This document shows, piece by piece, positions 2,214 through 30,835 of a DNA stretch of 56,985 nt (position 1 is its first letter; each line of letters begins with the position of its first letter). The stretch comes from Burkholderiales bacterium (lineage in GTDB: Bacteria > Pseudomonadota > Gammaproteobacteria > Burkholderiales > SHXO01): positions 1 to 56,985 of the forward strand of contig DASPUW010000433.1 in the NCBI GenBank assembly GCA_035622675.1. The letters run 5' to 3'. The position numbers and the translations under genes are program-made. The notes under the pieces were generated by a model. The model was not told where the DNA came from, ran no database searches, and worked only from the letters and a program-made list of their open reading frames with translations.

Positions 2214-2231
2214 GGTGCGTATCCGGATCGT

Positions 2232-3516: not shown

Positions 3517-3541
3517 TTGTGCTCCTGTCGATCCCTGCTGG

Positions 3542-4198: not shown

Positions 4199-4228
4199 AA
4201 CACTGATCCTCTACCCGCATCCAGCGGG

Positions 4229-4843
4229 TCAAATCAGCTTCTCCTTTCTCAACCTCCCGATTACCAGCTTGACGAACTCCTGGATATCTTTCTGCAGCTC
4301 GCCGCTCGGCGCGAAGGTCTGCGTGGTCCCAGACCAAAGCAACACGGATTCATCGCCGCCACCGTACAGGTTTGTCTCCAGGACTTCGGTCTCGGGCTCG
4401 GGAGCAACGGCCGGCTCATGATATCCCGTCCACGCCGCCGAGTAGCCGGCAGTAAAACTAGACCCCGGGGTCGGACGAAACGCGGGAGTGAACTGGGCGT
4501 CTGCGCCGGCCCGCACCAGTCGCGTCACCAGCATTCCGTCCGCACCGCTTTTTCCGGCGGCCTCTTTCAGTCGTGCGGCATCGGCTTCCGCGACTTGAGG
4601 GATCAAAGTATAGCTTGCGATCGCATCCACGCCCGACACCTTGAGCTGCTTGACGAACTCATCCTCGAAGGTTCGGCGCAGCGCAGCCTGCTTCGAAACG
4701 CCAATCACAACGATCTTCTTGAGCGCTCCACCCTTGTAGTCGGGGCTGCGCCACGAATTGGTCAACTCGGTAGACGCACACGAGTTCAGGACCAAAGCGG
4801 CGATAGCGAGAATTACCCTTGCAGAAGCGTTGCGAACAATCAT
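4229..4843 (-). CDS. putative lipoprotein (possibly DUF4136-like)
   Basis: 204 aa with a signal peptide and lipobox (LVLNSCAS). Lies between the TonB-dependent receptor and tonB. The family name comes from memory of similar lipoproteins and is not verified. Confidence 0.6.
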   Translation of the reverse strand: MIVRNASARVILAIAALVLNSCASTELTNSWRSPDYKGGALKKIVVIGVSKQAALRRTFEDEFVKQLKVSGVDAIASYTLIPQVAEADAARLKEAAGKSGADGMLVTRLVRAGADAQFTPAFRPTPGSSFTAGYSAAWTGYHEPAVAPEPETEVLETNLYGGGDESVLLWSGTTQTFAPSGELQKDIQEFVKLVIGRLRKEKLI

Positions 4844-4896
4844 TTTCCAGCCTCCCCATGCATCGCTTTGCCCATGCTCTCACGCGAATTTGAAGC

Positions 4897-12085: not shown

Positions 12086-12976
12086 TCACTTGACATTCTG
12101 CAGCTTCGACAACTCGGACTGATTCACGCTCGGCTGCGTGCGGCTAATCAGAGCTTCGATGTAGCTGCGTTCGATATCCTGCGCACGGCGCGTGCGCAGC
12201 TGATTAGCGATGCCGTCGTGGACCTCGGCCAGCGAGCGCGTCGACGTCGCCTTCCTGTCTAGCAGCTTCACGACATGCCACCCATTGCTGGTGCGGAACG
12301 GGCCTGCAACCTCGCCCTTGTCCAGCTTCTCGACTACGCTGCGCGTCTCTGGCAGCATCTGCGCCGCTGTCACCCACCCGATATCGCCTCCCTTTGGAGC
12401 GCTGTCTGCTTGCTCCGAGTTCTCCTTGGCCAGTTTCGCAAAGTCTGCGCCGTTCGCCTTCGCCTTTGCGGCCAGCTCCATCGCTTTCCTCTGCGCCGCA
12501 GCCGCGGTTGCCTTATCTGCGTCCTCAGGCGAGGCGATGAAGATCTGGGCAAGGTTGAACTGCGCCGGCACAACGAAAGTCGACCTGTTGGCCTCGTATG
12601 CCTTGCGTATGTCATCCTCTGCCGGATATTCCGTGGGTGGCCGCGCCAGATTGCTTACGTACATTTGCAGCAACGCCTGATCCCTCGCGCGCTCCATCAT
12701 CAGCGCGACATCGGGCTTCCTGTCCCAACCTTTGGACCTCGCTTCCGTCAGCAACGACTGACGCACAAGCTCGCTGCGCACCAGGCGATCCAGCTCGCTG
12801 GCACCGGTCAGCTGCTTGCGCAAATCCGGCGGCTGCGCATCGATGATCCGCCTTATGTCGGACGCTTTGATCTCGACGTTACCCATCTTGCCCACGACCG
12901 GATCCTCCGCGGCCGCCTGCTGGGCGCAGACGCTGCTGCTAATCCACACCAATGACAACCATGCCCATCCAATCAT
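12086..12976 (-). CDS. periplasmic parvulin-type peptidyl-prolyl isomerase (SurA/PpiD-like)
   Basis: Rotamase motifs (FNLAQIFI...GADFAKLAKENSEQ...GGDIGWV...GEVAGPFRTSNGWHVVKLLD). The start is set at MIGWAWLSLVWISSSVCAQQ (signal peptide). Confidence 0.8.
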   Translation of the reverse strand: MIGWAWLSLVWISSSVCAQQAAAEDPVVGKMGNVEIKASDIRRIIDAQPPDLRKQLTGASELDRLVRSELVRQSLLTEARSKGWDRKPDVALMMERARDQALLQMYVSNLARPPTEYPAEDDIRKAYEANRSTFVVPAQFNLAQIFIASPEDADKATAAAAQRKAMELAAKAKANGADFAKLAKENSEQADSAPKGGDIGWVTAAQMLPETRSVVEKLDKGEVAGPFRTSNGWHVVKLLDRKATSTRSLAEVHDGIANQLRTRRAQDIERSYIEALISRTQPSVNQSELSKLQNVK

Positions 12977-13058
12977 TCGCACGTTCACGGGATACCCCCC
13001 ACGCCTGGAACAGGACCGCTCGCTCCGGATTGCGCGCCTTCCGCCACGCGACTCCTGG

Positions 13059-13997
13059 TCACTTCGATTCCGGCGCGCGTTCCGTTGACTTCGGCTGGCT
13101 CGTCGCTTCCGCGGGTGACGGGGCCGCATTGCCAGCGCGCTTCTCGAACTCCCCCACGTATTCCACCTTGGCCGATGTGCGCAGGCGGCTCAACGTCTCG
13201 CTCGACAGGTCTAGCCGCTTACGATGCTCCAGAATCTGCTCGATGTACGGCGTCGCCTGCTCCTCGGTCAGCGGAGCGCGCTGCGAGCGGTCGAGCTGAG
13301 TGACCACCACGGCGTTGCCTCGCGGAACAACCAGAAGGTCACCGTCCTTCATCTGATGGATCTTGCCGATCAGCTCCGACGGCAGCTGCTCTGCAGCCTG
13401 CACGCTGAGGTTGGTCTGGAACTTGAGGTCGTGAGACTTCAACCAGAGCGCGAGCTGAGGCAGCGTTTTCGTCTTGTCCCGTTGCTCCTCGAGGCGGGCC
13501 ACCTCCGCACGAAGCTGCGGCTGAATGTCCGGCGGTGCAGCGATAGCGATCTCCTTGAGGCGATACAGGCGTCGGTCCTCGAACAGCTCCGGGTGTTCCA
13601 GATAGAATGCCTTGACCTGCTGCGCGGTGCTCCTGGGCGCGCCCTGCACCATCTGCTCCAGATAAGCCTGCGCGAATATCTGCCGCTTGGCAGCGTCGAC
13701 TAGCGCCATCACGTGCGGATCGCGATCGAGTTTCTTCTGCACCGCCTGCTGCACTAGGAGTTGCTGATCGATCAGGCGCTCCAGCATCTGCTTTTGCGCT
13801 TGCTTCTGCTGTGCATCCGGGATGTTTCCGGCACGCGACAAGGCCTGCTCGATTTGCTGCACAGTGATTTCGTCGCCGTTGACTTTGGCCGCGACCGGGC
13901 TGGCTGTCTTGGGGTCACTGCCAGGTGTACACCCCGACAAAAGAATCAGCGCCACTGCAATCGCCGCGGCGGCCTCGACTATGCGGGCAGGGATCAC
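13059..13997 (-). CDS. EpsD-like SurA-N/PPIase-family lipoprotein (PEP-CTERM-locus-associated family, from memory)
   Basis: 312 aa with a lipobox (LILLSGCTPG). VNGDEITVQQIEQAL...ERLIDQQLLVQQA resembles the chaperone domain of the EpsD family of PPIases. Confidence 0.65.
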   Translation of the reverse strand: MIPARIVEAAAAIAVALILLSGCTPGSDPKTASPVAAKVNGDEITVQQIEQALSRAGNIPDAQQKQAQKQMLERLIDQQLLVQQAVQKKLDRDPHVMALVDAAKRQIFAQAYLEQMVQGAPRSTAQQVKAFYLEHPELFEDRRLYRLKEIAIAAPPDIQPQLRAEVARLEEQRDKTKTLPQLALWLKSHDLKFQTNLSVQAAEQLPSELIGKIHQMKDGDLLVVPRGNAVVVTQLDRSQRAPLTEEQATPYIEQILEHRKRLDLSSETLSRLRTSAKVEYVGEFEKRAGNAAPSPAEATSQPKSTERAPESK

Positions 13998-14225: not shown

Positions 14226-15098
14226 CTACGCCGGCGGGCGCCCGCTGAGGGCGTCGCTGCGGGTCAGATTCAGAGCGATTCCCCTCGCGACTGCCTGAGC
14301 GCGGTTTTGAACGTCGAGCTTGCGGAGAATCTTCTGGACGTGATTCTTTACCGTGAGGCGACTTATGCTGAGGATCTCGGCAATCTCGTGGTTGCTCTTG
14401 CCGCGCTCTACCCACTCGAGAACTTGGGCCTCGCGTGTGGTGAGGATTTCACGCGTTTCGATCCGATGTACGCTAGCTGATGCAGTCCGCTCGCAGTTGT
14501 TGGCACACAGCCATGCTGAATGCAGGTACGGTACGGTCAGTTCCAGCATGCGAGCGTCACGCGCGCAGACGGGAGCGGGCAGCTTGAAAAAAGCGAAGAA
14601 CGCGGCTGGATGCTCGCCCAATCCTGCCAATCCGTGAACCATCGCGTTGGTGAGATCCATGCGTCGCAATGTCGCCACCATCGGTTCCATCGCTGCGTCA
14701 AGACTCGACGTCACGCCTACTGCCAGCGGGACGCATCCGCCTCGCCTCCACACCGCCACCAGATGATGCAGGATTCCGTTCCGGCCGCACAACTCGGTGA
14801 AATGTTCCTCCGCGATGGGATAGCTCCCTAGCCAGTCGAAGCACAAACCTCGGGCGCCAGGATCAGGCATCGCACACACCAGACCTTCGTGCGCGACGAT
14901 ACCCTGGAACACGCCCTGGAGCCAGGAAAAGAAGCAAGCGCGGCTCTTGACCTTGACTGCTGCCTCGATATTCACGAGCAGGACATCGAGCTCGGTACGG
15001 CTCTGAATCACGGCTGCGTCTGCGTCATGGCGAAGTGGTCTCTCGTGCGGAGATGCCAAGCTTGAACCCCCTCCGCGAGCGACTCCGGCGCGAGTCAC
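14226..15098 (-). CDS. LuxR-family regulator, EpsA-like (XrtA/PEP-CTERM-system-associated type, from memory)
   Basis: C-terminal LuxR HTH (TTREAQVLEWVERGKSNHEIAEILSISRLTVKNHVQKILRKLDV). The N-terminal domain (ACFFSWLQGVFQGIVAHEGLVCA) resembles EpsA-type regulators. Confidence 0.75.
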   Translation of the reverse strand: MTRAGVARGGGSSLASPHERPLRHDADAAVIQSRTELDVLLVNIEAAVKVKSRACFFSWLQGVFQGIVAHEGLVCAMPDPGARGLCFDWLGSYPIAEEHFTELCGRNGILHHLVAVWRRGGCVPLAVGVTSSLDAAMEPMVATLRRMDLTNAMVHGLAGLGEHPAAFFAFFKLPAPVCARDARMLELTVPYLHSAWLCANNCERTASASVHRIETREILTTREAQVLEWVERGKSNHEIAEILSISRLTVKNHVQKILRKLDVQNRAQAVARGIALNLTRSDALSGRPPA

Positions 15099-15159: not shown

Positions 15160-15567
15160 CTACCAATCCGCAAACAGCTTGCCGTCCAGGCCCGCACCGT
15201 CGGCGCCGCTCTTGACGTCGTACACTGACCCTTTCGCTTCGCTGTCGGGCGGAGGAAGGACCTTCCAAGTGGTCGTGCTGTCGGTGATCGGGTCCACGGG
15301 AACGTTGCGGATGTAGCGCAGCGTGGCGAGCTCCTCCAACGAATCTGGATAGCGACCTTTGTCGCCGTGAAACTTGTCGATCGCGTCGCGCATGACCGCC
15401 AGGTCCTGTTTCAGCGTCGCTTCTTTGGTGTGTTGGATGTGCGTGAAATACCGCGGGACAGCAATCGTCAGAAGCAAGGCCAGAATGGCGAGGACAATGA
15501 TCAGCTCGACCAGCGTGAAAGCGCGGAATGCAATGCGCAGCGGCCCCTTCACCACTCCCCTCACCAC
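15160..15567 (-). CDS. GspG-like pseudopilin (prepilin-type N-terminal domain)
   Basis: RAFTLVELIIVLAILALLLTIAVPRY. Has Ala instead of Gly at the -1 cleavage position, and Glu at +5 is present. Confidence 0.8.
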   Translation of the reverse strand: MVRGVVKGPLRIAFRAFTLVELIIVLAILALLLTIAVPRYFTHIQHTKEATLKQDLAVMRDAIDKFHGDKGRYPDSLEELATLRYIRNVPVDPITDSTTTWKVLPPPDSEAKGSVYDVKSGADGAGLDGKLFADW

Positions 15568-16061
15568 TGCCTATAGGGCACCCCGTTGATCCCCTTTGCG
15601 CTCGACAGCGAATACACGTCGAACACATCCTTGCCCGGGCTCGGGTCGTCGGGCGGACTGTCGTAGCTACGCATGCCCCACGTCTTTTCAGCGGGAGTGT
15701 CTCCATCGCTAAAGAAGGGATCGCGCGGGACGCGGCGCAGGAAATAGATCTTGCGTTTCGCTGGATCTTTCTCGTTGCTGACGCCGCCGACCAGCGCATC
15801 GAGCGACGGCGGGTATCCGCTCTCATCTGCCTTCTTCGCAACACGGCCTTCGTCGACCGCCTGCTTATATGCGTCAATCGCGGTGCGAATATCGCGCAGC
15901 GCAGCACGCAAGTCCTGCTCTTTCGCGCGTTGACTGGCCAATTCACCAAGCGGGATCAAGCCCGTCACGAGGATCGCGACAATCGCAACGACAATCAGCA
16001 GCTCGATGAGGGTGAACCCGCGTCGACTGTTCGATGTGTGGCCGGCTAAGCCGATGGTCAT
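15561..16061 (-). CDS. GspG-like pseudopilin (prepilin-type N-terminal domain)
   Basis: RRGFTLIELLIVVAIVAILV, the canonical G/FTLIE cleavage-methylation motif. Overlaps the secretin stop by 4 nt. Confidence 0.8.
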   Translation of the reverse strand: MTIGLAGHTSNSRRGFTLIELLIVVAIVAILVTGLIPLGELASQRAKEQDLRAALRDIRTAIDAYKQAVDEGRVAKKADESGYPPSLDALVGGVSNEKDPAKRKIYFLRRVPRDPFFSDGDTPAEKTWGMRSYDSPPDDPSPGKDVFDVYSLSSAKGINGVPYRQW

Positions 16062-18286
16062 GGTGTGACGGTGATGTCCACCGGCGCAGGCGGCTGCATC
16101 GGCACGTTGCCGCCGCCAGCATCGATTCCCACTACGTTTTCTGCTCGCACTTGAACTGTCCCGGGCGCGGCTACAACTTTGAACCGCACGGACGCGGCCC
16201 CCTCGACCTTCACCGGCACACGCCCTGGCGCGGACGGGGCGACGCCGAGCGGCTGGAGTTGGCTCGGATCAAAGGCCAGCTCGACGCGTGCACCTACCGC
16301 GCTGGTTCCCGGTGGCACTCCGAGCGACACGAGCAGCTCGGTCCCGGTCTTGGCCGCAAGCGGCACGGCGATCAGCAGTCCCGGCACGGGCTCGGCCGGT
16401 GCTTCTGGACCGGGACCTGGTGCGGCGGGGGTCGGGGCAGCCGCCTGCCGCGCGGCGCCGCCGCCCTGCGCGGGGGCCAGCGCGAGCGCGCCGGAGGATG
16501 TCTGTGCGATCCGCAGCGGCACGCTGCCGATCGACGAGTCGGTGCCGACCGGCGTATCGACGATCGCGCTCTGCGGCCAGTTGATGCTGCGCACGATGCG
16601 CGGCGTGATCAAGAGAATGATCTCGGTCTTTTCGCGATCGTCCGTTTGGTTGCGGAACAAGCGCCCGATGATCGGAATATCGCCCAGGCCCGGCACCTTC
16701 TGCGCGCTCACGCGGTCGTCGTCCTGAATGAGGCCTGCCAGAATCTGAGTTTCCCCGTCTTTGATCTGTAAAGTGGTCGCGGCATTGCGCGTCCCCAGCT
16801 GGTACGCAACCGTGCCGTTGATGTTCAGTGTCTGGGTGATGTTGCTTACTTCCAGCCCGACCTTGATCGCGACCTCGTCGCGCAGATAGATGTTCGGTTC
16901 CACGTCGAGCTTGAGCCCCGTATCCAGATAGCTCACCGAGGACGAGACGCCCACGTTTGCGGTAGACGTAGTCGTGATGACGGGCACCTTCTGCCCGATG
17001 TGGACTTTGGCCTTTTCCCGATTCTTCACCCGCACCTTGGGGTTGGCGAGCAACCTGTTGTCGGCGTCCTGTGCCAACAGGTTAACCACGATCGCCGGGT
17101 TGGCGGTAAACCACACCAGTCCGTTGGTCGTGTTCAACGGAATATTGGCCGGCGGCGTCGGTGTCGGTGTACCGGTGCCCGGCTGGCTGCCGGTCGACAG
17201 CGCCGGATTGCCGTAGCTGATGCTCGTCGGCCATTGCAGCCCGAGGGTCTGCATGCGCGTACGCGACACCTCGAGCACCGACAGCTCGAGCATGACTTCG
17301 GGCTCGGCCAAATCCAGAGAACGCACCAGACGTTCCACCACGCTCACTGCTTCCGGCGTGTCTTTGACGACCATCAGATTGAGCTTCTCATCGATGAATA
17401 CGTCCTGAGTCTTGACCATGCCCTTGACGAGGTTGACCGCCTGCTTCACGTCGGCGTTCGCCAGGTAGAAGCTGCGCACCACAAGCTCGCGGTACTCTTT
17501 CTGCTTCGCCGGAGTATTGGGGTAGACCAGGACCGAGTTCTCGTTGAGCAGCCTGCGATCCAGCTGATTGGTGAGCAGGATCAGCTTGACCACATCGTCG
17601 AGCGAGCTGTTGCGCACGACCATGTTCACTTTGGTATCCGAGCGTACGTCGCGGTCGAACACGAAATTGATCCCGGAGGTACGGGAGATCACTTCGAACA
17701 CCGTCTTCAACGTCGCGTCGCGAAATTCCAGGGTAATGGGTTTGGTGAAGGCCGACTTGAGAGCGGGCGGTGCCGAGGCCGCGGCCGCCGCGCGCTTTTC
17801 GTAGATGCGGCTCAACTGGGTCCGCGCGTCGATAAGACTCGGATCCTGCTCGATCACTCGTTTAAGGGTCTGCTCGGCCTGATCGAGTGCGCCGGCGTCG
17901 ATGTCCTTTTGTGCCAGCTTGATCGCTTCCAGGTTCTTGCGCCGCTGCGCGATCTCGCCCAGTCCGACCTGGGCCGCCTTGTTGGCGGGGTCGTAGCGCA
18001 AGGCCTTACGGTAGTCCGTCTCAGCCCTGTCAAGGTCGCCGGAACCGCGGTACAGATCACCCTGCGACACCCAGCGGGCAACCGCCTGCCCTTTGTCCTC
18101 CTCGTAGGTCTGGCGATACTCGAAGTTGTTGGGCGCCGCCTTGACCGCTTCTTCCAGCTTCGCCAGCGCACCCTCGCTATCGCCGGCCGCCATCTTCTCC
18201 CGCCCGTCCGTATACGCGCGCCAGCCGGCGCAAGCGCTCAGCAGGCAACACGCAATCAGCAGACTGGATGTGGCTCGCGTCATCAC
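16058..18286 (-). CDS. secretin (GspD/PilQ family) lipoprotein with an N-terminal TPR region and a C-terminal extension
   Basis: 742 aa. Features in order: lipobox (LLSACAG); TPR-like helices; an N0/N1-like region (ITLEFRDATLKTVFEVISRTSGINFVFD); the secretin core ending in GLGDIPIIGRLFRNQTDDREKTEIILLITPRIV; then 176 further residues. Confidence 0.9.
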   Translation of the reverse strand: MMTRATSSLLIACCLLSACAGWRAYTDGREKMAAGDSEGALAKLEEAVKAAPNNFEYRQTYEEDKGQAVARWVSQGDLYRGSGDLDRAETDYRKALRYDPANKAAQVGLGEIAQRRKNLEAIKLAQKDIDAGALDQAEQTLKRVIEQDPSLIDARTQLSRIYEKRAAAAASAPPALKSAFTKPITLEFRDATLKTVFEVISRTSGINFVFDRDVRSDTKVNMVVRNSSLDDVVKLILLTNQLDRRLLNENSVLVYPNTPAKQKEYRELVVRSFYLANADVKQAVNLVKGMVKTQDVFIDEKLNLMVVKDTPEAVSVVERLVRSLDLAEPEVMLELSVLEVSRTRMQTLGLQWPTSISYGNPALSTGSQPGTGTPTPTPPANIPLNTTNGLVWFTANPAIVVNLLAQDADNRLLANPKVRVKNREKAKVHIGQKVPVITTTSTANVGVSSSVSYLDTGLKLDVEPNIYLRDEVAIKVGLEVSNITQTLNINGTVAYQLGTRNAATTLQIKDGETQILAGLIQDDDRVSAQKVPGLGDIPIIGRLFRNQTDDREKTEIILLITPRIVRSINWPQSAIVDTPVGTDSSIGSVPLRIAQTSSGALALAPAQGGGAARQAAAPTPAAPGPGPEAPAEPVPGLLIAVPLAAKTGTELLVSLGVPPGTSAVGARVELAFDPSQLQPLGVAPSAPGRVPVKVEGAASVRFKVVAAPGTVQVRAENVVGIDAGGGNVPMQPPAPVDITVTP

Positions 18287-18834
18287 TCGCTGCCGGTCGG
18301 CAAGGTCTGTCGTTGACTAAGCGGCAGATAGGTGATCACCAGCGCGCGCTCGCCCACTTCCTCGAGCTTGTACGTGTTGTCGATCGTTTCCCCGGGCTTG
18401 ACAACGAGATTCCGCTCGCCCTGGGCGAGGAACACCGTCGTGTCGTGATCCTCCACCAGCCGCCCCACATAGGCAAATGGCAACGGCGGCGCCTGCGGGG
18501 GAGGCGGTGGCGGTGCTGCCGCCGCGACGGCCGACGCCGCCGTTCCCTTCGGTGCCTTCGGCGGCGCGGGCCGGAAGCTCCGCGGCCCGAACGCCTCGCT
18601 GTCGGGATCGGTCGATGGTCTGCGGCGCAGCTTGCCAAGATCCAGCGCCGGCGCCTGCTCGGGCGCGGTGCGCGGCTTGGAATCGGCTGCTGGCCGCGGG
18701 GTGGAGTCGGCGACTGCACCGGCGCTCGCTTCGGTCATATCGGTGAGCTCATCAGCCCAGCGCACTGCGGTCAACGTGAGGGCTACTCCGCCGATCAGCA
18801 GCCCCGCACGCACCTTGGGATTCACTCTCATCAC
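18283..18834 (-). CDS. PilP/GspC-HR-like inner-membrane assembly protein
   Basis: 183 aa. Has an N-terminal TM helix, a Pro/Ala-rich linker and a C-terminal beta-rich domain (YVGRLVEDHDTTVFLAQGERNLVVKPGETIDNTYKLEEV). Both ends overlap neighbouring genes by 4 nt. Confidence 0.55.
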   Translation of the reverse strand: MMRVNPKVRAGLLIGGVALTLTAVRWADELTDMTEASAGAVADSTPRPAADSKPRTAPEQAPALDLGKLRRRPSTDPDSEAFGPRSFRPAPPKAPKGTAASAVAAAAPPPPPPQAPPLPFAYVGRLVEDHDTTVFLAQGERNLVVKPGETIDNTYKLEEVGERALVITYLPLSQRQTLPTGSE

Positions 18835-19391
18835 TCCTCCCCCAAGAACAGACTGAATCGCACCCTGGCGTCCAGGTCAGGCTGATCGGCCGACTCGCGC
18901 TTCAGCGCGAGCTCGTCGAGCGCAGCCGATGGCACCACCTGCAGTACTTCGTTCACGAAACCTCGCACGCTGGTGTAATCACCGCTCACCGGCAGCGTAA
19001 TCTCGTAGCGGGCCAAGTGGAAGTCGGCTTCCCGACTGAGCTTGTACTCCCCCTTCTTGAGGAGCAGGCGATTGTGCTGCGCCGCGCGGTGAACACGTCC
19101 CAGCAGCTCTGGCACGTTCTCGATCAGCGGGAAGAAGGCGTAGAAGTTCGACAGCTGACCGCGCCCGCTCGGGGCAACGCTCAAGGAACCGCGCTGCCCC
19201 AAACGCGACACCAGGTTCGCCACCTCCGCGTCCAGCGCCTGCACGCGCTGGCGTCCGGAGTGGATCACGATTCCGACGGCACCCGCCGCAAACAACAACA
19301 GGGCGAGGCCGCTGAGTCCTGGCCAACGCAGCCGGATCAGCGCGCGCTTGATGGTCCATTCCGCCCGGTGTGCAAAGGATGGCCTGCTCAC
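18831..19391 (-). CDS. PilO/GspM-like bitopic membrane protein
   Basis: 186 aa with a single TM helix (LSGLALLLFAAGAVGIVIH). Assigned by position and size within the operon; no sequence motif was recognised. Confidence 0.5.
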   Translation of the reverse strand: MSRPSFAHRAEWTIKRALIRLRWPGLSGLALLLFAAGAVGIVIHSGRQRVQALDAEVANLVSRLGQRGSLSVAPSGRGQLSNFYAFFPLIENVPELLGRVHRAAQHNRLLLKKGEYKLSREADFHLARYEITLPVSGDYTSVRGFVNEVLQVVPSAALDELALKRESADQPDLDARVRFSLFLGEE

Positions 19392-19930
19392 TGTTCCTCC
19401 TGCCAGGCCGCGGAAAGCGTGAAGGCAACGGGCTGGCCCGGGTCCTTGCTCTTCACCTCATGACTCTGGAGCACGACTCCGTGCAGCCGCTTGCTGCGCT
19501 CCAAGCGCTCCATGTAAGCAAAAATCGCTGACAGGGTGCGAGCGTCGCCGCCGATCAGCACGCTGCGGTTGCGCGCATCGGGCTGAACGGCGAGCAACGC
19601 CACGTCAGCGGTCTCCGCCGATTCGATTGCGGCGAACAGCTCACCCCACGGGACGTTCATCAGCTGCAGCACCGCGTTCGCTTTCTTGATCTGCTCCCGC
19701 AGTTCCGGAGTGTCGGCCCCCCGCGCGGTAATGGCCGGGAGCGATCGGCTCGCGATAGCGTGCAGCGTGGCGAGTCGATCCTCGCGGGCTGCCGTCTCGC
19801 GCTTCAGATGGCCCTGATACGAGATCGCTGCCACCGCGGCAAGTGTGCCGGCGATCAGCAGCCACGGGCCGACACGCGAGCCGCGGCCGGTGGGTCGAAG
19901 GAAGTCGAGCTCTATCGTGCGCACGCTCAC
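19388..19930 (-). CDS. PilN/GspL-periplasmic-like bitopic membrane protein
   Basis: 180 aa with a short cytoplasmic N-terminus, then a TM helix (WLLIAGTLAAVAAISY). Assigned by position and topology. Confidence 0.5.
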   Translation of the reverse strand: MSVRTIELDFLRPTGRGSRVGPWLLIAGTLAAVAAISYQGHLKRETAAREDRLATLHAIASRSLPAITARGADTPELREQIKKANAVLQLMNVPWGELFAAIESAETADVALLAVQPDARNRSVLIGGDARTLSAIFAYMERLERSKRLHGVVLQSHEVKSKDPGQPVAFTLSAAWQEEQ

Positions 19931-19957
19931 GCTTTCCCCGGCCTCAAATCACGGCTC

Positions 19958-20800
19958 TCACCCTCCGACTGGCTCCACACGAGCATCGGCCTGAGAATTT
20001 CTCCGCTTGAATCCGTTTCCGAGGCGGATCAGCTGCCAGCCCGGTATCGCAGCGGGAGGCGGTGAAGCATCCGAGCACAGATACAGTACGCCACCACCGC
20101 TCGCGTCGCCCACCGCCGCCTCCTGTTTCAGAAGGACCGGCAACGCTTGTCCGAGAGGACCGTCGATGCGGCGGCTGCGCACGGCTTGCCAGGCTCCGTT
20201 CGCATGAAAAGCCAGGCTCGCCCGTCCCGGCTCCGCCGCGGCAAAGCAGAACTGCCGCGCCTTCAGGGCCGAGCGATGGCGGTTGATCCGGTCGACCAAA
20301 TTTGGAACCAGCGATGCGAGCTGGCCACCCGCGCGCGTGACTGCGTCCCGCACCGACGAAACCAGCGCGCGGTCCACGGCAGCCGCGAAGGAGGCCTGGC
20401 CCGCCGGCTGCTCGTCCAGGCAGAAGTCCCAGGAGTCGGCCGCAATTCCATACAGCTCCTTGAACGCCAGCCGCGCGAAGCTGAGGCGCTCGCTGTCGCT
20501 CACAAGTCCGCGGCTCCAGGGGATCAGCAGGTAGCGCACGAAGTGATCCGACAGCACGACCTCCACCCGCCCGAGGCGCACGCGCCGCTCACGCAGTGTC
20601 TCGACCAGAACATCGGAGGCCGCTCGCCAGAGCTCCGGCGCTTCGCTGCCGTCCGTCGCACCTGCCTCGACCGCGATCGTGCGCTGCGTCTCGGAGCGCG
20701 CGCGCAGCGTGGCTCCGCGCCGCGCCACACTCACCGAGGCGGGCCTCAGCTCCACGCGCCAATCCTTCCCCGGCAGCAAACTACCCAACCAGCGTGACAC
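19958..20800 (-). CDS. PilM/GspL-cytoplasmic-domain-like protein (no TM segment)
   Basis: 280 aa, soluble, located directly after the ATPase gene with a 20-nt overlap. Assigned by gene order only. Confidence 0.45.
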   Translation of the reverse strand: MSRWLGSLLPGKDWRVELRPASVSVARRGATLRARSETQRTIAVEAGATDGSEAPELWRAASDVLVETLRERRVRLGRVEVVLSDHFVRYLLIPWSRGLVSDSERLSFARLAFKELYGIAADSWDFCLDEQPAGQASFAAAVDRALVSSVRDAVTRAGGQLASLVPNLVDRINRHRSALKARQFCFAAAEPGRASLAFHANGAWQAVRSRRIDGPLGQALPVLLKQEAAVGDASGGGVLYLCSDASPPPAAIPGWQLIRLGNGFKRRNSQADARVEPVGG

Positions 20801-22472
20801 GGTTTATCTCCTGTAGCGTGCTCTCGCCGCTGCGCACAATCTCGAGCGCGGCTTCGCGCAGGAACCGCGTCTGCTGTCTGCGCGCCGCCTCCTTTACCCG
20901 GCGAATGGGCTCTCGCGCAGTGATCAGCTCGCGAATCTCGTCGTTGAGCACCATGATCTCCGAGATCGCCCTGCGCCCGCGGAAGCCACTACCGCGGCAG
21001 TGTCCGCAACCGCTCCCGGCGCGCAGCCTCCAATCACGCACCTGCTCCAGGGTGAGACCCGACTCGGCCAGCAACTGCGTATCGGGCGCCGCGTCTCTGA
21101 CGCAGTGGCTGCAGTTCACCCGCACGAGGCGCTGCGCGGCGATGCCATTGAGGGCCGAGACGAAGCTGTATGGGTCAACACCCATGTGCATAAAGCGGCC
21201 GATCACGTCGAACACATTGTTCGCGTGGACCGTGGTGAAAACGAGGTGCCCGGTGAGCGCGGCTTGGACTGCAATCTGCGCAGTTTCGGGGTCGCGAATC
21301 TCACCCACCATGATCTTGTCCGGATCGTGCCGCAAGATCGAGCGGAGGCCGCGGGCAAACGTGAGGCCCTTTTTCTCATTTACCGGGATCTGCAGCACTC
21401 CGGGCAGCTGATATTCAACCGGATCCTCGATCGTGATCAGCTTGTCCGCACCGTGGTTGATCTCCGAAATCGCGGCATACAGCGTGGTCGTCTTGCCGCT
21501 GCCGGTCGGCCCCGTCACGAGTAGCATGCCGTAAGGCTCGCTCGACAAGCGCCGCAGGGTGGCAGCCGCCTGGGCATCGAACCCGAGTGCGTCGAGCGTC
21601 AGCCCCTTGACGTGGTCGGCCAGGCTTTGCTTGTCCAGGATACGCAACACGGCGTCTTCACCGAAGATGCTCGGCATCACCGATACGCGAAAATCGATCT
21701 CGCGCCCCTGAGCCACGACCTTAAAGCGCCCGTCCTGCGGGATGCGCCGCTCGGCGATGTCCAACTCGGCCATCACCTTGACGCGCGATATGACTTGCTC
21801 GGCCATGTCCAGGCCTTGCGCCGTGCCGATCGGGCTCAACACGCCGTCCATCCTGTACTTGATGACCAGGTGCGTGGCAGTGGTTTCCAGATGAATATCG
21901 CTCGCGCCGGCTTTCAGCGCGTCGTAAAGCGTCGAGTGCACCAGCCGTACGACCGGACTGCCCGCTTCGCTGATGGTCTTCAGCGACAGCTCCTCCACGC
22001 GACCTCGGGCGCCGTCCTCTTGCACCGACTCGCTCAGGAGCGAGTCCATGGCTCGCAGGCTCTCGCCATAGCGGGCTAGATACGCCGCGACATCGGTGGT
22101 GTGGGCCAGGCACCAGTGCAACGCGCCAGGAATGCGCTCCTCCGCCCACGGGCGCAGGGCCGGGTCGAACGGATCGCCAAAGGCCAGCAAGAGCTGCGCC
22201 TCCGCGTCGCGCGCGAGCACGCAGCCATGCGCCAAGGCCTCCGTATAAGGCAGCAGATCGAACGCCGGCTCGAGGCCATCCAGCTCGCGCATCGACACTG
22301 CCGTGTAGCCGAGCGTGGCACCCAGCGCGGCCACGAACTTGTCAGGCAGCAGCTCGGATTGCTCCTCCAGTATGTCCACGATGCGCTTGCCGCTCGCGCG
22401 AGCGCTAGCCCTCGCCTTCGCGACGTCATCGGGAAGAATCAGCGGCGCCGATTCCAGCTCGCGCGGGTTCAA
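20781..22472 (-). CDS. gspE: type II secretion/type IV pilus assembly ATPase (GspE/PilB family)
   Basis: Walker A (VTGPTGSGKTTTLYA), GspE N-domain-like residues, and a C-terminal tetracysteine motif (CSHC...CGHC). The start is placed at a TTG forming a TTGA overlap with the gspF stop. The 196-aa Arg/Gly-rich extension in the ORF track is rejected. Confidence 0.9.
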   Translation of the reverse strand: MNPRELESAPLILPDDVAKARASARASGKRIVDILEEQSELLPDKFVAALGATLGYTAVSMRELDGLEPAFDLLPYTEALAHGCVLARDAEAQLLLAFGDPFDPALRPWAEERIPGALHWCLAHTTDVAAYLARYGESLRAMDSLLSESVQEDGARGRVEELSLKTISEAGSPVVRLVHSTLYDALKAGASDIHLETTATHLVIKYRMDGVLSPIGTAQGLDMAEQVISRVKVMAELDIAERRIPQDGRFKVVAQGREIDFRVSVMPSIFGEDAVLRILDKQSLADHVKGLTLDALGFDAQAAATLRRLSSEPYGMLLVTGPTGSGKTTTLYAAISEINHGADKLITIEDPVEYQLPGVLQIPVNEKKGLTFARGLRSILRHDPDKIMVGEIRDPETAQIAVQAALTGHLVFTTVHANNVFDVIGRFMHMGVDPYSFVSALNGIAAQRLVRVNCSHCVRDAAPDTQLLAESGLTLEQVRDWRLRAGSGCGHCRGSGFRGRRAISEIMVLNDEIRELITAREPIRRVKEAARRQQTRFLREAALEIVRSGESTLQEINRVTLVG

Positions 22473-23662
22473 TGCATGCTCCCAGCCAGCTCGAAGATGG
22501 GGAAATACATGAGGACTACGATCCCCCCGATCACGACGCCGATGACGGCCATGAGGACCGGCTCGAACACGCGGGTGAACCGCTCCACCCAGCGCGCCAG
22601 CTCCTCCTCGTGGAACGTGGCGATGCGCTCCATCATCTCGCCCATTTGACCGGTCCGTTCCCCCACCCGCAGCATGCGCAGCGCTACCGGCGTCGTAAGG
22701 CCTTGGGAGTCGAGCGACTGCGAGATCGGCTGACCCTCCCGGATGCTGCGGGCGGCCTGCGCAAGGCGCTGTTGCAGCTCTTGGTCGAGAAGTCCGGACA
22801 CCATCGCCAGCGCCTGGGTCACCGGAGTCCCGCCCCCCAGCAGCATGCCGACGGTGCGGTACAGGCGCGTCAGTTGGTATACGCGCGCACGTGCGCCGAC
22901 CGCCGGAATGCGAGCGAACAGGCGGCTTAGCCAGCGCCGGGCGGATGGCTGCCGAAGCCATACCACAAGTCCTACGATAACCGCGCACACTAGGCCGAGC
23001 AGGAGCAAGCCGCGGCGCTCCACGAATCCGCCCCAGGCCATGAGCAGCCGTGTGAGCCATGGCAGATTTCCACCGATGTCCTCGTATATGCGAGAGAACC
23101 GTGGTACCACGTAGCCGAGCAGGAACATGCAGACCAAGCCGCCCACGATGATGAGGATGGCCGGGTAAATCGAAGCGCTGACCAGGTGCTTTTTGACACC
23201 GTCGAGCTGCGTCTGATACGCCACATAGCGCGCCAGCGCCTCGGGCAGGTCGCCGGTGCGCTCGCTCGCTCGCACCGTCGCCACAAACAGATCCGGAAAG
23301 GTCTGCGGGAAACCCTGTAGGGCGGACGAGAAGGATTGACCCTGCTTAAGTCGCTGCGCCAGGCCAACCAGGACACCCGAGGTCGCGGGGCGCGACTCCT
23401 TCTCGGCCAGCGTCTCGATCGCTTCCAGCAGACTGATACCAGAGCGCAACAGCGCGAGCAGCTCTTGGGTGAACAGGACAAGTGGGAATCGCGCCGTTCC
23501 CAGCCCTTGCGGCAAAGCGACCGCACTCGCTGGACGCACCCCGACAACCAGGTAGCCCTGCGCTTGCGCCTGCTCGTTGGCGTCACGCAGGTCACGCGCA
23601 TCAAGGAGCAGGGAAACGACATCTCCCGCCCCGGGCTTGACCGCTTTAACCTGGTAACGCAT
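22469..23662 (-). CDS. gspF: type II secretion system platform protein (GspF/PilC family)
   Basis: 397 aa with duplicated T2SSF-type domains and three predicted TM regions. Ends ...MYFPIFELAGSM. Confidence 0.9.
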   Translation of the reverse strand: MRYQVKAVKPGAGDVVSLLLDARDLRDANEQAQAQGYLVVGVRPASAVALPQGLGTARFPLVLFTQELLALLRSGISLLEAIETLAEKESRPATSGVLVGLAQRLKQGQSFSSALQGFPQTFPDLFVATVRASERTGDLPEALARYVAYQTQLDGVKKHLVSASIYPAILIIVGGLVCMFLLGYVVPRFSRIYEDIGGNLPWLTRLLMAWGGFVERRGLLLLGLVCAVIVGLVVWLRQPSARRWLSRLFARIPAVGARARVYQLTRLYRTVGMLLGGGTPVTQALAMVSGLLDQELQQRLAQAARSIREGQPISQSLDSQGLTTPVALRMLRVGERTGQMGEMMERIATFHEEELARWVERFTRVFEPVLMAVIGVVIGGIVVLMYFPIFELAGSMH

Positions 23663-23670
23663 CGGAAAAC

Positions 23671-24090
23671 CTAGTAGTTGGTGATGTCCGCATCCTCACC
23701 CGTGCCGCCCGGCTGGCCGTCCTTTCCCAGTGAAACCAGGTCGTACTCGCCATGCTCGCCGGGCTGCCGGTAGATGTAGGGGTGATCCCACGGGTCCAAA
23801 GGCACGGCCTTGCGCAAATACGGTCCGTTCCACTTTGGCTCGTTGTTGGGTCTGGTGAACAGCGCGCCTAAACCCTGCTCGCTCGTCGGATAGTGCCCGG
23901 TATCGAGACGGTACTGATCGAGCGCCTTGTCAAATGAGTCGATCTGCGCGCGTGTGACCTGAATCTTCGATTTGCCCTCCTGCGCAAAGTAGCGCGGGGC
24001 GACGTAACCGACCAGCAGTCCGATGATGACGATCACTACCAACAGCTCGAGCAGCGTGAAACCGAGATGAGAAGGGCGAGCCACTCGCAT
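23671..24090 (-). CDS. gspG: major pseudopilin GspG
   Basis: GFTLLELLVVIVIIGLLVGYVAPRY plus the GspG C-terminal signature (DPWDHPYIYRQPGEHGEYDLVSLGKDGQPGG). The start is set at MRVARPSHLGF. Confidence 0.9.
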   Translation of the reverse strand: MRVARPSHLGFTLLELLVVIVIIGLLVGYVAPRYFAQEGKSKIQVTRAQIDSFDKALDQYRLDTGHYPTSEQGLGALFTRPNNEPKWNGPYLRKAVPLDPWDHPYIYRQPGEHGEYDLVSLGKDGQPGGTGEDADITNY

Positions 24091-29602: not shown

Positions 29603-30835
29603 TTGCGCAACTCCGCCCTTCAAGCCGTTCTGAGCCTGGCGATTTCCGCCGCAGCGGTGCTCGCGGTGCAAGTGCTGGCCACACGCGCCCCTGCGCTCCC
29701 CGCTACGCTGAGCGGCCTGCGGATATTCGGGCCATACGCCGCGTTCGCGCTCACCGCGGCGATCAGTCTGTGGTTCGGGCGCGCACGCATATTTCTTGCC
29801 GTACTGTGCATCGCGCTGGCTTATGCCGCGTACCGCTCTCTGCTCGGGGCCGGTCTGCAGGCGCCGGGTGCGCGCACAGCTTTCGCCGCGCTGTGCGTGT
29901 TCGTGCCCGCCAACCTGGCGCTGTTCAGCCTGCTGTCCGAGCGCGGCCTGTTCACCGTCTTCGGTTTGCGCCGGCTGCTGGTCATCGCGACTGAGCTTGC
30001 GTTCACGTTCTGGCTCATCGAAGCCGGCGTCACCGAGTTTGCCGATTGGCTCGGTGGAAACTGGTTCGACTTCGCGTGGCTGCGCGCGTCGCCTATCCCG
30101 CAGGCAGCGCTGGCAGTGATGCTGGCGAGCCTGGTCGTGGTGAGCGCACGTGCGCTCGCGCTGGGCAGCTCGGTCGATGCGGCGATGGCCGGTGCGCTCC
30201 TCGCGTTCTGCAGCGCCGCCGAGAAGGTGGAGCAGCCGAATGGCTTTGCGTTGCTCACTTCCTGCGCCGCCCTGCTCCTGCTGATCGGCGTGCTCCAGGA
30301 CTCGCGCCGTATGGCGTTCCGAGATGAGCTCACCGGGTTGCCGAGCCGCCGCGCGCTGAACGAGCGCCTGATGGGCCTCGGGCACGACTTCACCGTCGCC
30401 ATGCTGGACGTGGACCACTTCAAGAATTTCAACGACACCTATGGCCACGTCGTAGGCGATCAGGTCTTGCGGCTGGTCGCAGCCGAGCTCGAGCGCGTGC
30501 GCCGTGGAGGGCGGGCATTTCGCTATGGCGGCGAGGAGTTCGCCCTGTTGTTTCCAGGGCGGGGCATCCGGGAGATCATCGGTGAGCTCGATGTGCTGCG
30601 CGCGAACATCGCCCAGCATCGGATCGGTTTGCGCGGCGCCGACCGGCCACCGGAAGCGGAGGCCGGCCGCCACCTGCGCGCCGGGCAGGCACCTCGGAAG
30701 ATCGTATCGGTGACGGTCAGCATTGGCGTGGCCGAGACCAACGACAAGCTGAGATCCCCGGATGAGGTTCTGAAGGCCGCTGATCGTGCGCTCTACCGCG
30801 CCAAAGAGAAGGGCAGGAACACGGTGAGCAGGTGA
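29603..30835 (+). CDS. membrane-anchored diguanylate cyclase (GGDEF domain)
   Basis: About 240 aa of multi-TM N-terminus, then DELTGLPSRRAL...LDVDHFKNFNDTYGHVVGD...RYGGEEFALLFPG. The start appears to be a TTG. Confidence 0.9.
   Translation: MRNSALQAVLSLAISAAAVLAVQVLATRAPALPATLSGLRIFGPYAAFALTAAISLWFGRARIFLAVLCIALAYAAYRSLLGAGLQAPGARTAFAALCVFVPANLALFSLLSERGLFTVFGLRRLLVIATELAFTFWLIEAGVTEFADWLGGNWFDFAWLRASPIPQAALAVMLASLVVVSARALALGSSVDAAMAGALLAFCSAAEKVEQPNGFALLTSCAALLLLIGVLQDSRRMAFRDELTGLPSRRALNERLMGLGHDFTVAMLDVDHFKNFNDTYGHVVGDQVLRLVAAELERVRRGGRAFRYGGEEFALLFPGRGIREIIGELDVLRANIAQHRIGLRGADRPPEAEAGRHLRAGQAPRKIVSVTVSIGVAETNDKLRSPDEVLKAADRALYRAKEKGRNTVSR

What the first reader, a model, noticed from the sequence alone, without database searches (positions are those of the whole stretch)
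15160..24090. Non-canonical, translationally coupled 10-gene T2SS/T4P-hybrid operon
Gene order on the minus strand:
- gspG, gspF, gspE
- a soluble PilM/GspL-like protein
- three bitopic PilN/PilO/PilP-like proteins
- a secretin
- two more GspG-like pseudopilins

The junctions are almost all overlapping:
- TTGA at gspF/gspE
- 20 nt at gspE and the next gene
- 4-nt overlaps at 19391/19388, 18834/18831, 18286/18283 and 16061/16058
- 7 nt at 15567/15561

The content fits neither textbook class:
- It has a GspG-type major pseudopilin (DPW...YDLxSLGKDGxxGG) and a GspE with the tetracysteine motif, as in a T2SS.
- Its assembly module is arranged like PilMNOPQ of type IVa pili.
- I see no PDZ-containing GspC, no GspH/I/J/K-type minor pseudopilins (all three pilins look GspG-like), no prepilin peptidase and no retraction ATPase in the window.

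This looks like a compact, possibly unclassified member of the type IV filament superfamily.
Basis: partly seen in the sequence, partly recalled or inferred. Interest (0 to 1): 0.75.

Follow-up and report, generated by a model that had tools for sequence, protein, structure and literature searches.

The report
Known "unorthodox" type II secretion cluster
This is an intact ten-gene secretion-machine operon of a kind long noted but never studied in soil bacteria such as Ralstonia and Cupriavidus, so it is a real, non-textbook system but not a new type.

Summary
A ten-gene minus-strand operon (24090 to 15160) has the stated gene order and mostly overlapping junctions. Only the first pilin passes a curated model, as GspG. 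The ATPase, platform and secretin fall below every T2SS, T4aP and MSHA cut-off. The ATPase scores equally against PilB and GspE.

The four unnamed proteins resolve as follows:
- a soluble actin-fold protein like PilM or the cytoplasmic domain of GspL;
- a PilN-like protein, fused to the first in one relative, which gives a GspL architecture;
- a PilO-like protein;
- a GspC-HR/PilP-like protein without PDZ.

The secretin is a TPR-fused lipoprotein.

The cluster type is not new. The same content and order occur in Ralstonia solanacearum, Burkholderia ambifaria and Cupriavidus metallidurans. Genome papers describe it as an "unorthodox T2SS" (Rmet_4704-4713: gspD, gspEFG, two extra gspG, four conserved hypotheticals). 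I found no functional study. The soluble protein's family is large: 2691 cluster representatives match its profile.

The most likely function is a pseudopilus-driven secretion machine with unknown cargo and a prepilin peptidase supplied from elsewhere. In this MAG it sits beside the PEP-CTERM regulator EpsA and EpsD.

Verdict: new member of a known but uncharacterised kind; moderate interest.

The parts
23671..24090 (-). Major pseudopilin GspG (139 aa; leader MRVARPSHLG|FTLLE; no Cys)
   Evidence: TIGR01710 at 182.7 bits against a cut-off of 88.85 and PF08334 T2SSG at 145 bits. Start ATG 24090. 69-91% identical in the relatives that carry it (leaders aligned).
22469..23662 (-). Inner-membrane platform protein (GspF/PilC family, 397 aa)
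   Evidence: PF00482, two stretches, 176.6 bits. GspF equivalog 275.6 bits against a cut-off of 424; HofC and PilC models are also below cut-off.
20781..22472 (-). Assembly ATPase (563 aa; TTG start overlapping the gspF stop; Walker A GPTGSGKT; CxxC...CxxC)
   Evidence: PilB equivalog 484.7 bits (cut-off 675.65) and GspE equivalog 479.4 bits (cut-off 630.25). PDB core-domain scores are 341-336 for Geobacter PilB and 336-334 for Vibrio GspE. It is 57-62% identical to the Burkholderiaceae cluster ATPases and 45-47% to canonical GspE. The regular expression I used for the two-part c-di-GMP-binding motif of MshE, recalled from memory, finds no match.
19958..20800 (-). Soluble actin-fold protein, PilM / cytoplasmic-GspL-like (280 aa)
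   Evidence: No Pfam or NCBIfam hit. AF2 pLDDT 81.6, pTM 0.81. Foldseek top hits are P. aeruginosa PilM (E 1e-10) and cyto-EpsL/PulL/GspL (TM normalised to target 0.52-0.59). Fused to the N-like protein in P0251.
19388..19930 (-). Bitopic PilN-like protein, equivalent to the TM and periplasmic part of GspL (180 aa), with an invariant N-terminal LDF motif
   Evidence: PF05137 PilN at 22.8 bits, exactly the cut-off. D9 and F10 are invariant in 16 sequences. 36% identical to the C-terminal half of the fusion protein P0251.
18831..19391 (-). Bitopic PilO/GspM-like protein (186 aa)
   Evidence: PF04350 PilO at 20.9 bits against a cut-off of 22. A profile of 15 homologues hits M. xanthus PilO in the PDB at E 2.8e-4.
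18283..18834 (-). Bitopic GspC-HR / PilP-like protein (TM helix, Pro-rich linker, C-terminal beta domain; no PDZ, no lipobox)
   Evidence: In the AF2 model, residues 120-178 have pLDDT above 90. The ten best Foldseek hits are all GspC/PulC/LspC HR, PilP or GspB domains, led by 3oss_C (TM 0.79, rmsd 2.2 A), although E-values are only 0.016-0.3. Weak GspC_delta hit at E 0.0014.
16058..18286 (-). Secretin (742 aa): lipoprotein signal, TPR, STN/N0, one Secretin_N, secretin domain, Pro/Ala linker, C-terminal beta domain
   Evidence: PF00263 at 145.7 bits plus TPR, STN and Secretin_N. GspD 184.7 bits (cut-off 351), PilQ 170 (284), MshL 117.9 (250). Cys18 is invariant in 10 homologues. The Ralstonia homologue ends in a Cohesin domain, PF00963 at 85 bits. 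The window's tail is related only through L020 (E 2e-6).
15561..16061 (-). Second pseudopilin, GspG-like (166 aa; leader ...NSRRG|FTLIE)
   Evidence: N_methyl at 36.2 bits. Best NCBIfam hit is GspG at 41.6 bits, below the cut-off. 33% identical to pilin 1 and 54% to the Ralstonia counterpart.
15160..15567 (-). Third pseudopilin, GspG-like (about 130-135 aa; leader ...AFRA|FTLVE, with Ala at -1)
   Evidence: N_methyl at 24.1 bits. Best NCBIfam hit is GspG at 50.8 bits, below the cut-off. Alternative starts are listed. The -1 residue is Ala in four close relatives and Gly in the others.
14226..15098 (-). EpsA-family LuxR-type regulator directly downstream (tentatively associated, probably its own transcript)
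   Evidence: TIGR03020 at 193 bits against a cut-off of 170. A full-length homologue (34% identity) lies 17 nt after the last pilin gene in the distant relative L020.

Best explanation
The locus is an intact member of the ten-to-eleven-gene "unorthodox T2SS" family of Betaproteobacteria. That family is known from R. solanacearum and C. metallidurans Rmet_4704-4713.

Inferred mechanism, by analogy with T2SS:
1. Three prepilins are cleaved and methylated by a prepilin peptidase encoded elsewhere in the genome.
2. The hexameric ATPase docks on the soluble actin-fold protein. That protein is held at the membrane by the N-terminal LDF peptide of the PilN-like protein. Together the two equal a GspL split into two genes.
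3. With the PilO/GspM-like protein and the GspF platform, they polymerise the GspG-type subunit into a short periplasmic pseudopilus. The two GspG-like paralogues presumably prime or cap it.
4. The HR-only GspC/PilP-like protein links the inner-membrane platform to the N0 domain of the secretin.
5. The secretin is a lipoprotein with its own TPR module, so it probably needs no separate pilotin.
6. Pseudopilus growth pushes folded periplasmic cargo through the secretin.

The cargo is unknown. In this MAG the EpsA/EpsD neighbours suggest a link with the PEP-CTERM/exopolysaccharide regulon.

Shown: gene content, homology, folds and family membership. Inferred: the interactions, secretion activity, cargo and regulation.
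For: Family membership:
- The same order is found in 24 related loci, including the Ralstonia megaplasmid, a B. ambifaria plasmid and a C. metallidurans replicon.
- Component identities to Ralstonia run from 31% to 68%.

T2SS-like nature:
- Pilin 1 passes the GspG equivalog.
- All three pilins are short, lack Cys and resemble GspG.
- No retraction ATPase is present in the window or in any locus.

Platform:
- The M-like fold matches PilM and cyto-GspL.
- An M+N fusion exists in P0251.
- The N-like protein has an invariant LDF peptide.
- The O-like profile hits PilO.
- The P-like domain matches GspC-HR and PilP.

Secretin: invariant lipobox Cys plus TPR, STN and secretin domains.

Intactness: all ORFs are open, GC3 is normal, and the M-like family has 2691 cluster representatives at E <= 1e-3.
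Against: - No experiment on any member was found.
- The ATPase, platform and secretin all fail the T2SS equivalog cut-offs.
- The ATPase is as close to PilB as to GspE.
- The M/N/O/P/Q order and the split M/N are T4aP traits.
- No GspH-K tip complex is recognisable. Canonical T2SS is thought to need one for initiation (general knowledge of the T2SS field; not tested here).
- No cargo gene is conserved next to the cluster.
- The prepilin peptidase is unseen because only 57 kb of the genome is available.
Confidence: 0.6

Rival explanations
1. It builds a non-retractile surface fibre for adhesion, aggregation or floc formation, like MSHA or a T4aP without PilT, rather than secreting proteins.
For: - The module has PilM/N/O/P/Q order with split M and N genes.
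- The full-length ATPase scores slightly higher against PilB than against GspE.
- The TPR part of the secretin weakly resembles the T4P pilotin PilW (E 3.6e-5).
- Neighbours belong to a biofilm/EPS regulon: EpsA and EpsD, a PEP-CTERM protein and a GGDEF protein.
Against: - The major subunit is a 139-aa GspG equivalog with no disulfide-bonded D-region.
- No adhesin or PilY1-like gene, no PilA-type pilin, and no AMIN domains on the secretin.
- No match to my from-memory regular expression for MshE's c-di-GMP motif.
- The MshL model scores lowest of the three secretin models.
Confidence: 0.2
2. It is a dedicated exporter of the PEP-CTERM/exopolysaccharide system. It moves exosortase-processed matrix proteins or the polymer itself across the outer membrane, under EpsA control. 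This is a special case of the secretion reading.
For: - EpsA (193 bits, cut-off 170) and EpsD (215.7 bits, cut-off 108.9) lie directly downstream.
- An EpsA homologue abuts the cluster in the distant relative L020.
- EpsD and a second isomerase lie downstream in L002.
- A priming sugar transferase (Bac_transf) lies upstream in L019, L023 and L024.
- A PEP-CTERM protein is encoded in the window.
- Pilin 2 gives weak hits to the HpsB/HpsC polysaccharide-secretion pseudopilins (E about 2e-3).
Against: - The link is not conserved. In Ralstonia and B. ambifaria the neighbours are Rhs toxins, and other loci have unrelated neighbours.
- The Hps hits cover only the generic pilin N-terminus.
- No exosortase gene lies in the window.
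Confidence: 0.12
3. It is an incomplete, decaying remnant of a T2SS that no longer works, which is the sense in which "unorthodox/incomplete" is sometimes used.
For: It lacks recognisable GspH-K, GspO, a PDZ-GspC and a single-gene GspL.
Against: - All ten ORFs are intact, with coupled junctions and normal GC3.
- Order and content are conserved from Burkholderiaceae to Methylophilaceae, Gallionella and Hydrogenophilaceae.
- The four "missing" functions are covered by the four unnamed proteins.
- The M-like family is large and has many invariant residues.
Confidence: 0.05

Closest known systems
"Unorthodox T2SS" clusters of Burkholderiaceae (R. solanacearum chromosome and megaplasmid; C. metallidurans CH34 Rmet_4704-4713; B. 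ambifaria plasmid)
   Same: Same genes in the same order: gspG, gspF, gspE, one soluble and three membrane "hypothetical" proteins, a TPR/STN secretin, then extra GspG-like pilins. Identities to Ralstonia are G1 68%, E 60%, G2/G3 54%, F 45%, P 43%, Q 40%, N 35%, M 31%.
   Different: The window has two extra pilins rather than three; a fourth pilin-like gene, where its N-terminus was aligned (L002, L009, L012, L020) lacking Glu5, is present in L002, L009, L012, L020, L021 and L022. The secretin tail is a short, unrecognisable version of the Ralstonia cohesin domain. Neighbours are EpsA and EpsD instead of Rhs toxins.
Canonical T2SS (Gsp/Eps/Pul/Xcp)
   Same: GspG-type major pseudopilin. GspE/F/D-family ATPase, platform and secretin. 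A GspC-HR-like connector. An actin-fold partner like cyto-GspL. No retraction ATPase.
   Different: GspL is split into two genes. GspC has no PDZ or coiled coil. There are no GspH/I/J/K. The secretin has N0 plus one N domain, an N-terminal TPR and a lipid anchor. The gene order differs. E, F and D all fall below the curated cut-offs.
Type IVa pilus machine (PilBC, PilMNOPQ, PilF/W)
   Same: M-N-O-P-Q gene order. Separate soluble PilM-like and bitopic PilN-like proteins. An N-terminal peptide motif on the N-like protein. A TPR element associated with the secretin. The ATPase is as similar to PilB as to GspE.
   Different: No PilA-type pilin, PilT/U, minor pilins or PilY1, and no AMIN domains. 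The P-like protein is TM-anchored, not a lipoprotein. The TPR is fused to the secretin rather than being a separate pilotin. The whole system sits in one operon.
MSHA pilus system (MshI-Q)
   Same: A single-locus system with PilM/N/O/P-like proteins, a lipoprotein secretin, a TPR component and no dedicated retraction ATPase.
   Different: The gene order differs. MshL scores worst of the secretin models (117.9 bits, cut-off 250). No match in the ATPase to my from-memory pattern for MshE's c-di-GMP motif. The pilin is GspG-type.

Membership tests
Unorthodox T2SS of Burkholderiaceae (Ralstonia / Cupriavidus type) | Content: gspG, gspF, gspE, four conserved hypotheticals (one soluble, three membrane), gspD, at least two further gspG copies | tested here: met
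   against the published descriptions.
Unorthodox T2SS of Burkholderiaceae (Ralstonia / Cupriavidus type) | Order G-F-E-(4 hypotheticals)-D-G-G on one strand | tested here: met
   Same order in L021, L022, L025 and all other loci fetched.
Unorthodox T2SS of Burkholderiaceae (Ralstonia / Cupriavidus type) | Each component homologous to its counterpart, with the ATPase closer to this group than to canonical GspE | tested here: met
   Nine of ten components hit Ralstonia. The O-like protein hits Cupriavidus at 31%. The M-like protein is not detected in Cupriavidus by tblastn, although an ORF occupies the position. The ATPase is 57-62% identical within the group and 45-47% to canonical GspE.
Canonical T2SS | Major pseudopilin GspG | tested here: met
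   TIGR01710 at 182.7 bits against 88.85.
Canonical T2SS | GspE, GspF and GspD reach the curated equivalog scores | tested here: not met
   479.4 against 630.25, 275.6 against 424, and 184.7 against 351.35.
Canonical T2SS | Minor pseudopilins GspH, I, J and K | tested here: not met
   Only N-terminal hits far below the cut-offs. Both extra pilins hit GspG best.
Canonical T2SS | GspC with an HR domain plus a PDZ or coiled coil | tested here: inconclusive
   An HR-like fold is present, but there is no PDZ or other second domain.
Canonical T2SS | Single bitopic GspL plus GspM | tested here: not met
   The cytoplasmic and periplasmic parts are separate genes. They are fused only in relative P0251. 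The GspM role is filled by a PilO-like protein.
Canonical T2SS | Prepilin peptidase GspO/PilD | not testable with these tools
   None in the 57-kb window. The rest of the MAG is not available.
Type IVa pilus | PilB equivalog and a PilT retraction ATPase | tested here: not met
   PilB at 484.7 bits against 675.65. No PilT in the window or the loci.
Type IVa pilus | PilA-type major pilin, minor pilins, PilY1 | tested here: not met
   The pilins hit GspG best. Pilin models such as PilA_Myxo score far below cut-off.
Type IVa pilus | PilM, PilN, PilO, PilP and PilQ | tested here: inconclusive
   Fold or profile similarity exists for all of them, and PilN sits exactly at the Pfam cut-off. But PilO is at 20.9 against 22, PilQ at 170 against 284, the P-like protein is not a lipoprotein, and there are no AMIN domains.
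MSHA pilus | MshE with a c-di-GMP-binding MshEN motif, MshL secretin, mshIJKLMNEGF order | tested here: not met
   No match to my from-memory pattern for the motif. PF05157 scores only 23.2 bits against 23.1. MshL scores 117.9 against 250.2. The order differs.

The most novel reading that the evidence does not exclude
The family is a separate, old branch of the type IV filament superfamily. It would preserve an intermediate state between T4aP and T2SS: GspL still split as PilM and PilN, only GspG-like pilins, and a self-piloting TPR-secretin with a cohesin tail that may dock cargo or a surface partner. In this Burkholderiales lineage it would have been drawn into the EpsA/PEP-CTERM regulon to export floc-matrix proteins. 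That would give the first outer-membrane route for exosortase substrates.
Probability: 0.15. Interest if true: 0.6.

Novelty: new member of a known kind. Interest (0 to 1): 0.35.

Why it matters
This cluster type has been called \"unorthodox\" or incomplete for about two decades, and I found no study of its function. Here it proves widespread in environmental Betaproteobacteria, and its four \"hypothetical\" genes can be read as a complete assembly platform. So it is probably a working minimal T2SS-like machine that manages with three GspG-like pilins and no separate pilotin.

That makes it a useful natural experiment on two questions: what a T2SS really needs, and how T2SS arose from T4aP. 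Genetically tractable hosts exist (R. solanacearum, C. metallidurans). The recurrent neighbours give testable cargo hypotheses: EpsA/EPS genes here, Rhs toxins in Burkholderiaceae, and a cohesin domain on the secretin.

For this particular window the finding adds a new member. It does not add a new kind.

Tried and rejected
- Literature searches for a PEP-CTERM-linked T2SS returned only an unrelated canonical T2SS in Acidovorax. \"Secretin + cohesin domain\" returned nothing. Searches for functional work on the unorthodox clusters returned only genome-comparison papers.
- The held supplements of Denise et al. 2019 show only the validated T2SS, Tad and T4P of R. solanacearum in the passages returned, so the MacSyFinder class of the unorthodox cluster could not be read off.
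- The PDB profile search for the N-like protein found nothing meaningful. For the P-like protein it gave only PilP at E 1.1, so a structure prediction was needed.
- The promoter and terminator scan was at chance level. A weak hairpin plus T-run at 15172-15155 after the last pilin gene is noted but not relied on.
- Direct BLASTP of the window's secretin tail against the Ralstonia cohesin domain was not significant. Only the indirect link through L020 holds, so \"cohesin-like\" remains an inference for the window.
- A proper ATPase phylogeny was not attempted, because reference PilB, MshE and GspE sequences could not be imported in number. Similarity scores alone show the ATPase is equidistant from PilB and GspE.
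- An MshE-like c-di-GMP switch is unlikely: my from-memory pattern for the motif found no match.

Full report
**1. What is there**

The window comes from a Burkholderiales MAG. The P-like protein is identical to VEK05_14965 of a "Burkholderiales bacterium", and its longest contig is 56985 bp.

On the minus strand, ten ORFs run from 24090 to 15160. Their GC3 of 0.72-0.81 matches the other genes of the window.

I checked the junctions base by base.
- TTGA at gspF/gspE.
- A 20-nt overlap between gspE and the next gene, whose GTG 20800 follows an AGGAG.
- Four 4-nt overlaps.
- One 7-nt overlap. This last one depends on which of four GTG codons starts the final pilin gene. GTG 15555 or 15552, behind GAGGGGAG, would give no overlap.

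Gene calls in two relatives show the same gspF/gspE overlap, and L020 also has the 20-nt gspE/M overlap. Tight coupling of this sort is usual in such operons and is not remarkable in itself.

**2. What the parts are**

Only pilin 1 passes a curated model, as GspG (TIGR01710, 182.7 bits against 88.85). The other main components fall short:

| Component | Model | Score | Cut-off |
|---|---|---|---|
| Platform | GspF | 275.6 | 424 |
| ATPase | PilB | 484.7 | 675.65 |
| ATPase | GspE | 479.4 | 630.25 |
| Secretin | GspD | 184.7 | 351 |
| Secretin | PilQ | 170 | 284 |
| Secretin | MshL | 117.9 | 250 |

Against solved structures, the ATPase core scores 341-336 bits with Geobacter PilB and 336-334 with Vibrio GspE. 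It is equidistant from the two.

The ATPase has Walker A and CxxC...CxxC. The aligned PilB sequences carry the same cysteines, so this motif does not point to T2SS. My regular expression for the c-di-GMP motif of MshE, recalled from memory, finds no match.

The three pilins have no cysteines and are 31-33% identical to one another. Pilins 2 and 3 hit GspG better than any GspH-K model. Pilin 3 has Ala at -1 here and in three close relatives, and Gly in the others.

**3. The four unnamed proteins**

- **M-like (280 aa).** It has no Pfam or NCBIfam hit. It folds confidently (pLDDT 81.6) into an actin-like ATPase fold. The best matches are P. aeruginosa PilM (E 1e-10) and the cytoplasmic domains of EpsL, PulL and GspL. 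Normalised to target length, the GspL domains fit best (TM 0.52-0.59).
- **N-like.** It sits exactly at the Pfam PilN cut-off and has an invariant N-terminal LDF motif. This motif is reminiscent of the PilN peptide that binds PilM.
- **Fusion.** In a Hydrogenophilaceae MAG the two proteins are one 450-aa protein (P0251). That is the architecture of GspL.
- **O-like.** A profile of its homologues hits M. xanthus PilO (E 2.8e-4).
- **P-like.** It has a TM helix, a disordered Pro-rich linker and a C-terminal beta domain with pLDDT above 90. The ten best structural matches for that domain are all GspC/PulC/LspC HR, PilP or GspB domains. The best is the ETEC GspC HR domain (TM 0.79, rmsd 2.2 A). 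E-values are weak because the domain is small. It has no PDZ and no lipobox.

So the "PilMNOP-like" reading and the "GspL/M/C" reading describe the same thing. This is a T2SS-type platform with GspL split in two and a minimal GspC.

**4. The secretin**

It has a lipoprotein signal whose Cys is invariant in ten homologues. It also has a TPR block, STN/N0, a single Secretin_N, the secretin domain, a Pro/Ala linker and a C-terminal beta domain.

In Ralstonia that tail is a true cohesin domain (PF00963, 85 bits). The window's tail is related to it only indirectly, through L020.

**5. Relatives and the literature**

The M-like family has 120 clusters at 90% identity, all unnamed. A profile of it finds 2691 representatives of 50%-identity clusters, 888 of them at E <= 1e-30.

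All 18 genome loci found with it are Betaproteobacteria: Burkholderiales MAGs, Ramlibacter, Noviherbaspirillum, Gallionella and Methylophilaceae. Every one keeps the order G-F-E-M-N-O-P-Q-G-G as far as the contig reaches. Several add a fourth pilin-like gene, which lacks Glu5 in the four loci whose N-terminus I aligned.

A search of plasmid and chromid records then found the same operon in cultured Burkholderiaceae:
- the R. solanacearum megaplasmid (identities of 31-68% for nine of the ten proteins);
- a B. ambifaria plasmid;
- C. metallidurans.

The ATPases of these clusters are 57-62% identical to the window's. Canonical GspE is 45-47% identical, and only over the C-terminal 70%.

This cluster type is in the literature:
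- Li et al. [quoted passage not shown]
- Janssen et al. [quoted passage not shown] That is exactly the ten-gene content of the finding.

I found no functional study.

**6. Context**

Directly downstream on the same strand lie three genes:
- an EpsA-family regulator (TIGR03020, 193 bits against 170);
- an EpsD isomerase (215.7 bits against 108.9);
- a second PpiC-type isomerase.

The window also encodes a PEP-CTERM protein (50282-50977) and a GGDEF protein.

An EpsA homologue follows the pilin genes in the distant relative L020. EpsD and the second isomerase follow in L002. An EPS priming transferase lies upstream in L019, L023 and L024.

The link is not general. In Ralstonia and B. ambifaria the neighbour is a divergent Rhs toxin gene, and other loci have unrelated neighbours.

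None of the window ORFs I scanned, which cover most ORFs of 200 aa or more with gene-like GC3, is a prepilin peptidase or a PilT-type ATPase.

**7. Interpretation**

The best reading is a working, minimal T2SS-like machine (confidence 0.6). A GspG pseudopilus is assembled by the ATPase on a split-GspL/GspM/GspF platform. The HR-only GspC homologue couples that platform to a self-anchored TPR-liposecretin. The peptidase is supplied in trans. The cargo is unknown.

Rivals:
- a non-retractile adhesive fibre (0.2);
- a dedicated exporter for the PEP-CTERM/EPS system (0.12), which is a special case of secretion;
- a decaying remnant (0.05), which conservation, intactness and the size of the family argue against.

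**8. Verdict**

What this analysis adds is the assignment of the four "hypothetical" genes, the split-GspL argument, the fused TPR and cohesin-type secretin, and the extent of the family. Interest is moderate.

Noticed in passing
window 50282-50977 (-): A 231-aa protein ends in a PEP-CTERM sorting motif (PF07589, 26.4 bits against a cut-off of 20.7). The organism therefore has an exosortase-type system, which fits the EpsA and EpsD genes next to the operon.
   Followed up: partly
window 12086-13997 (-): An EpsD-family peptidyl-prolyl isomerase (lipoprotein-like N-terminus) is followed by a second PpiC/SurA-like isomerase, downstream of EpsA. The same pair follows the cluster in L002.
   Followed up: partly
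window 15160-15567 (-); L001, L002, L008: The third prepilin has Ala instead of the usual Gly at position -1 of the cleavage site in this lineage. More distant relatives keep Gly.
   Followed up: partly
L002 15938-16228; L009 15715-16083; L012 15533-16126; L020 13383-14000; L021 15323-15802; L022 16295-16813: Most relatives have a fourth pilin-like gene after the third. In the four whose N-terminus I aligned (L002, L009, L012, L020) it lacks Glu5 (GFT[YF][VI]G..., or GYALI... in L002), as GspK-type tip pilins do. The window and its closest relatives lack this gene.
   Followed up: partly
L021 821-5986 (-); L022 1-4731 (-): In R. solanacearum and B. ambifaria the cluster sits next to a divergent Rhs toxin gene. 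The Ralstonia Rhs has an N-terminal Peptidase_C39-like stretch, and B. ambifaria adds an IPT/TIG-PPC protein. PMC6428702 reports that the cluster and rhsB are lost together in tomato-non-pathogenic strains.
   Followed up: partly
L021 13900-14424 (+): The Ralstonia secretin ends in a clear cohesin domain (PF00963, 85 bits). No paper in the library mentions a secretin with a cohesin domain.
   Followed up: partly
P0251 (Hydrogenophilaceae MAG, MFA5082291.1): This 450-aa protein joins the M-like and N-like proteins into one chain, which is a GspL-like architecture.
   Followed up: yes
L022 6556-7203 (+): In B. ambifaria a lytic transglycosylase (SLT) gene overlaps the start of gspG by 4 nt. This suggests peptidoglycan remodelling during assembly. 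There is no counterpart in the window.
   Followed up: no
window 29603-30835 (+): A GGDEF-domain diguanylate cyclase gene lies about 5 kb upstream of the operon.
   Followed up: no
window 490-7266 (-): A TonB system block: a TPR protein, two 142-aa ORFs that I did not scan (ExbD-like only by position and size), an ExbB/TolQ-like protein, TonB and a 789-aa TonB-dependent receptor.
   Followed up: no
window 41820-45932 (-) and 45855-46463 (+): A 1370-aa AsmA-family protein lies next to a DUF4124 protein. DUF4124 proteins also lie just upstream of the cluster in L019, L023 and L024.
   Followed up: no
window 49350-50138 (-): An Mrr-type restriction endonuclease with a C-terminal zinc ribbon lies next to the PEP-CTERM gene.
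   Followed up: no
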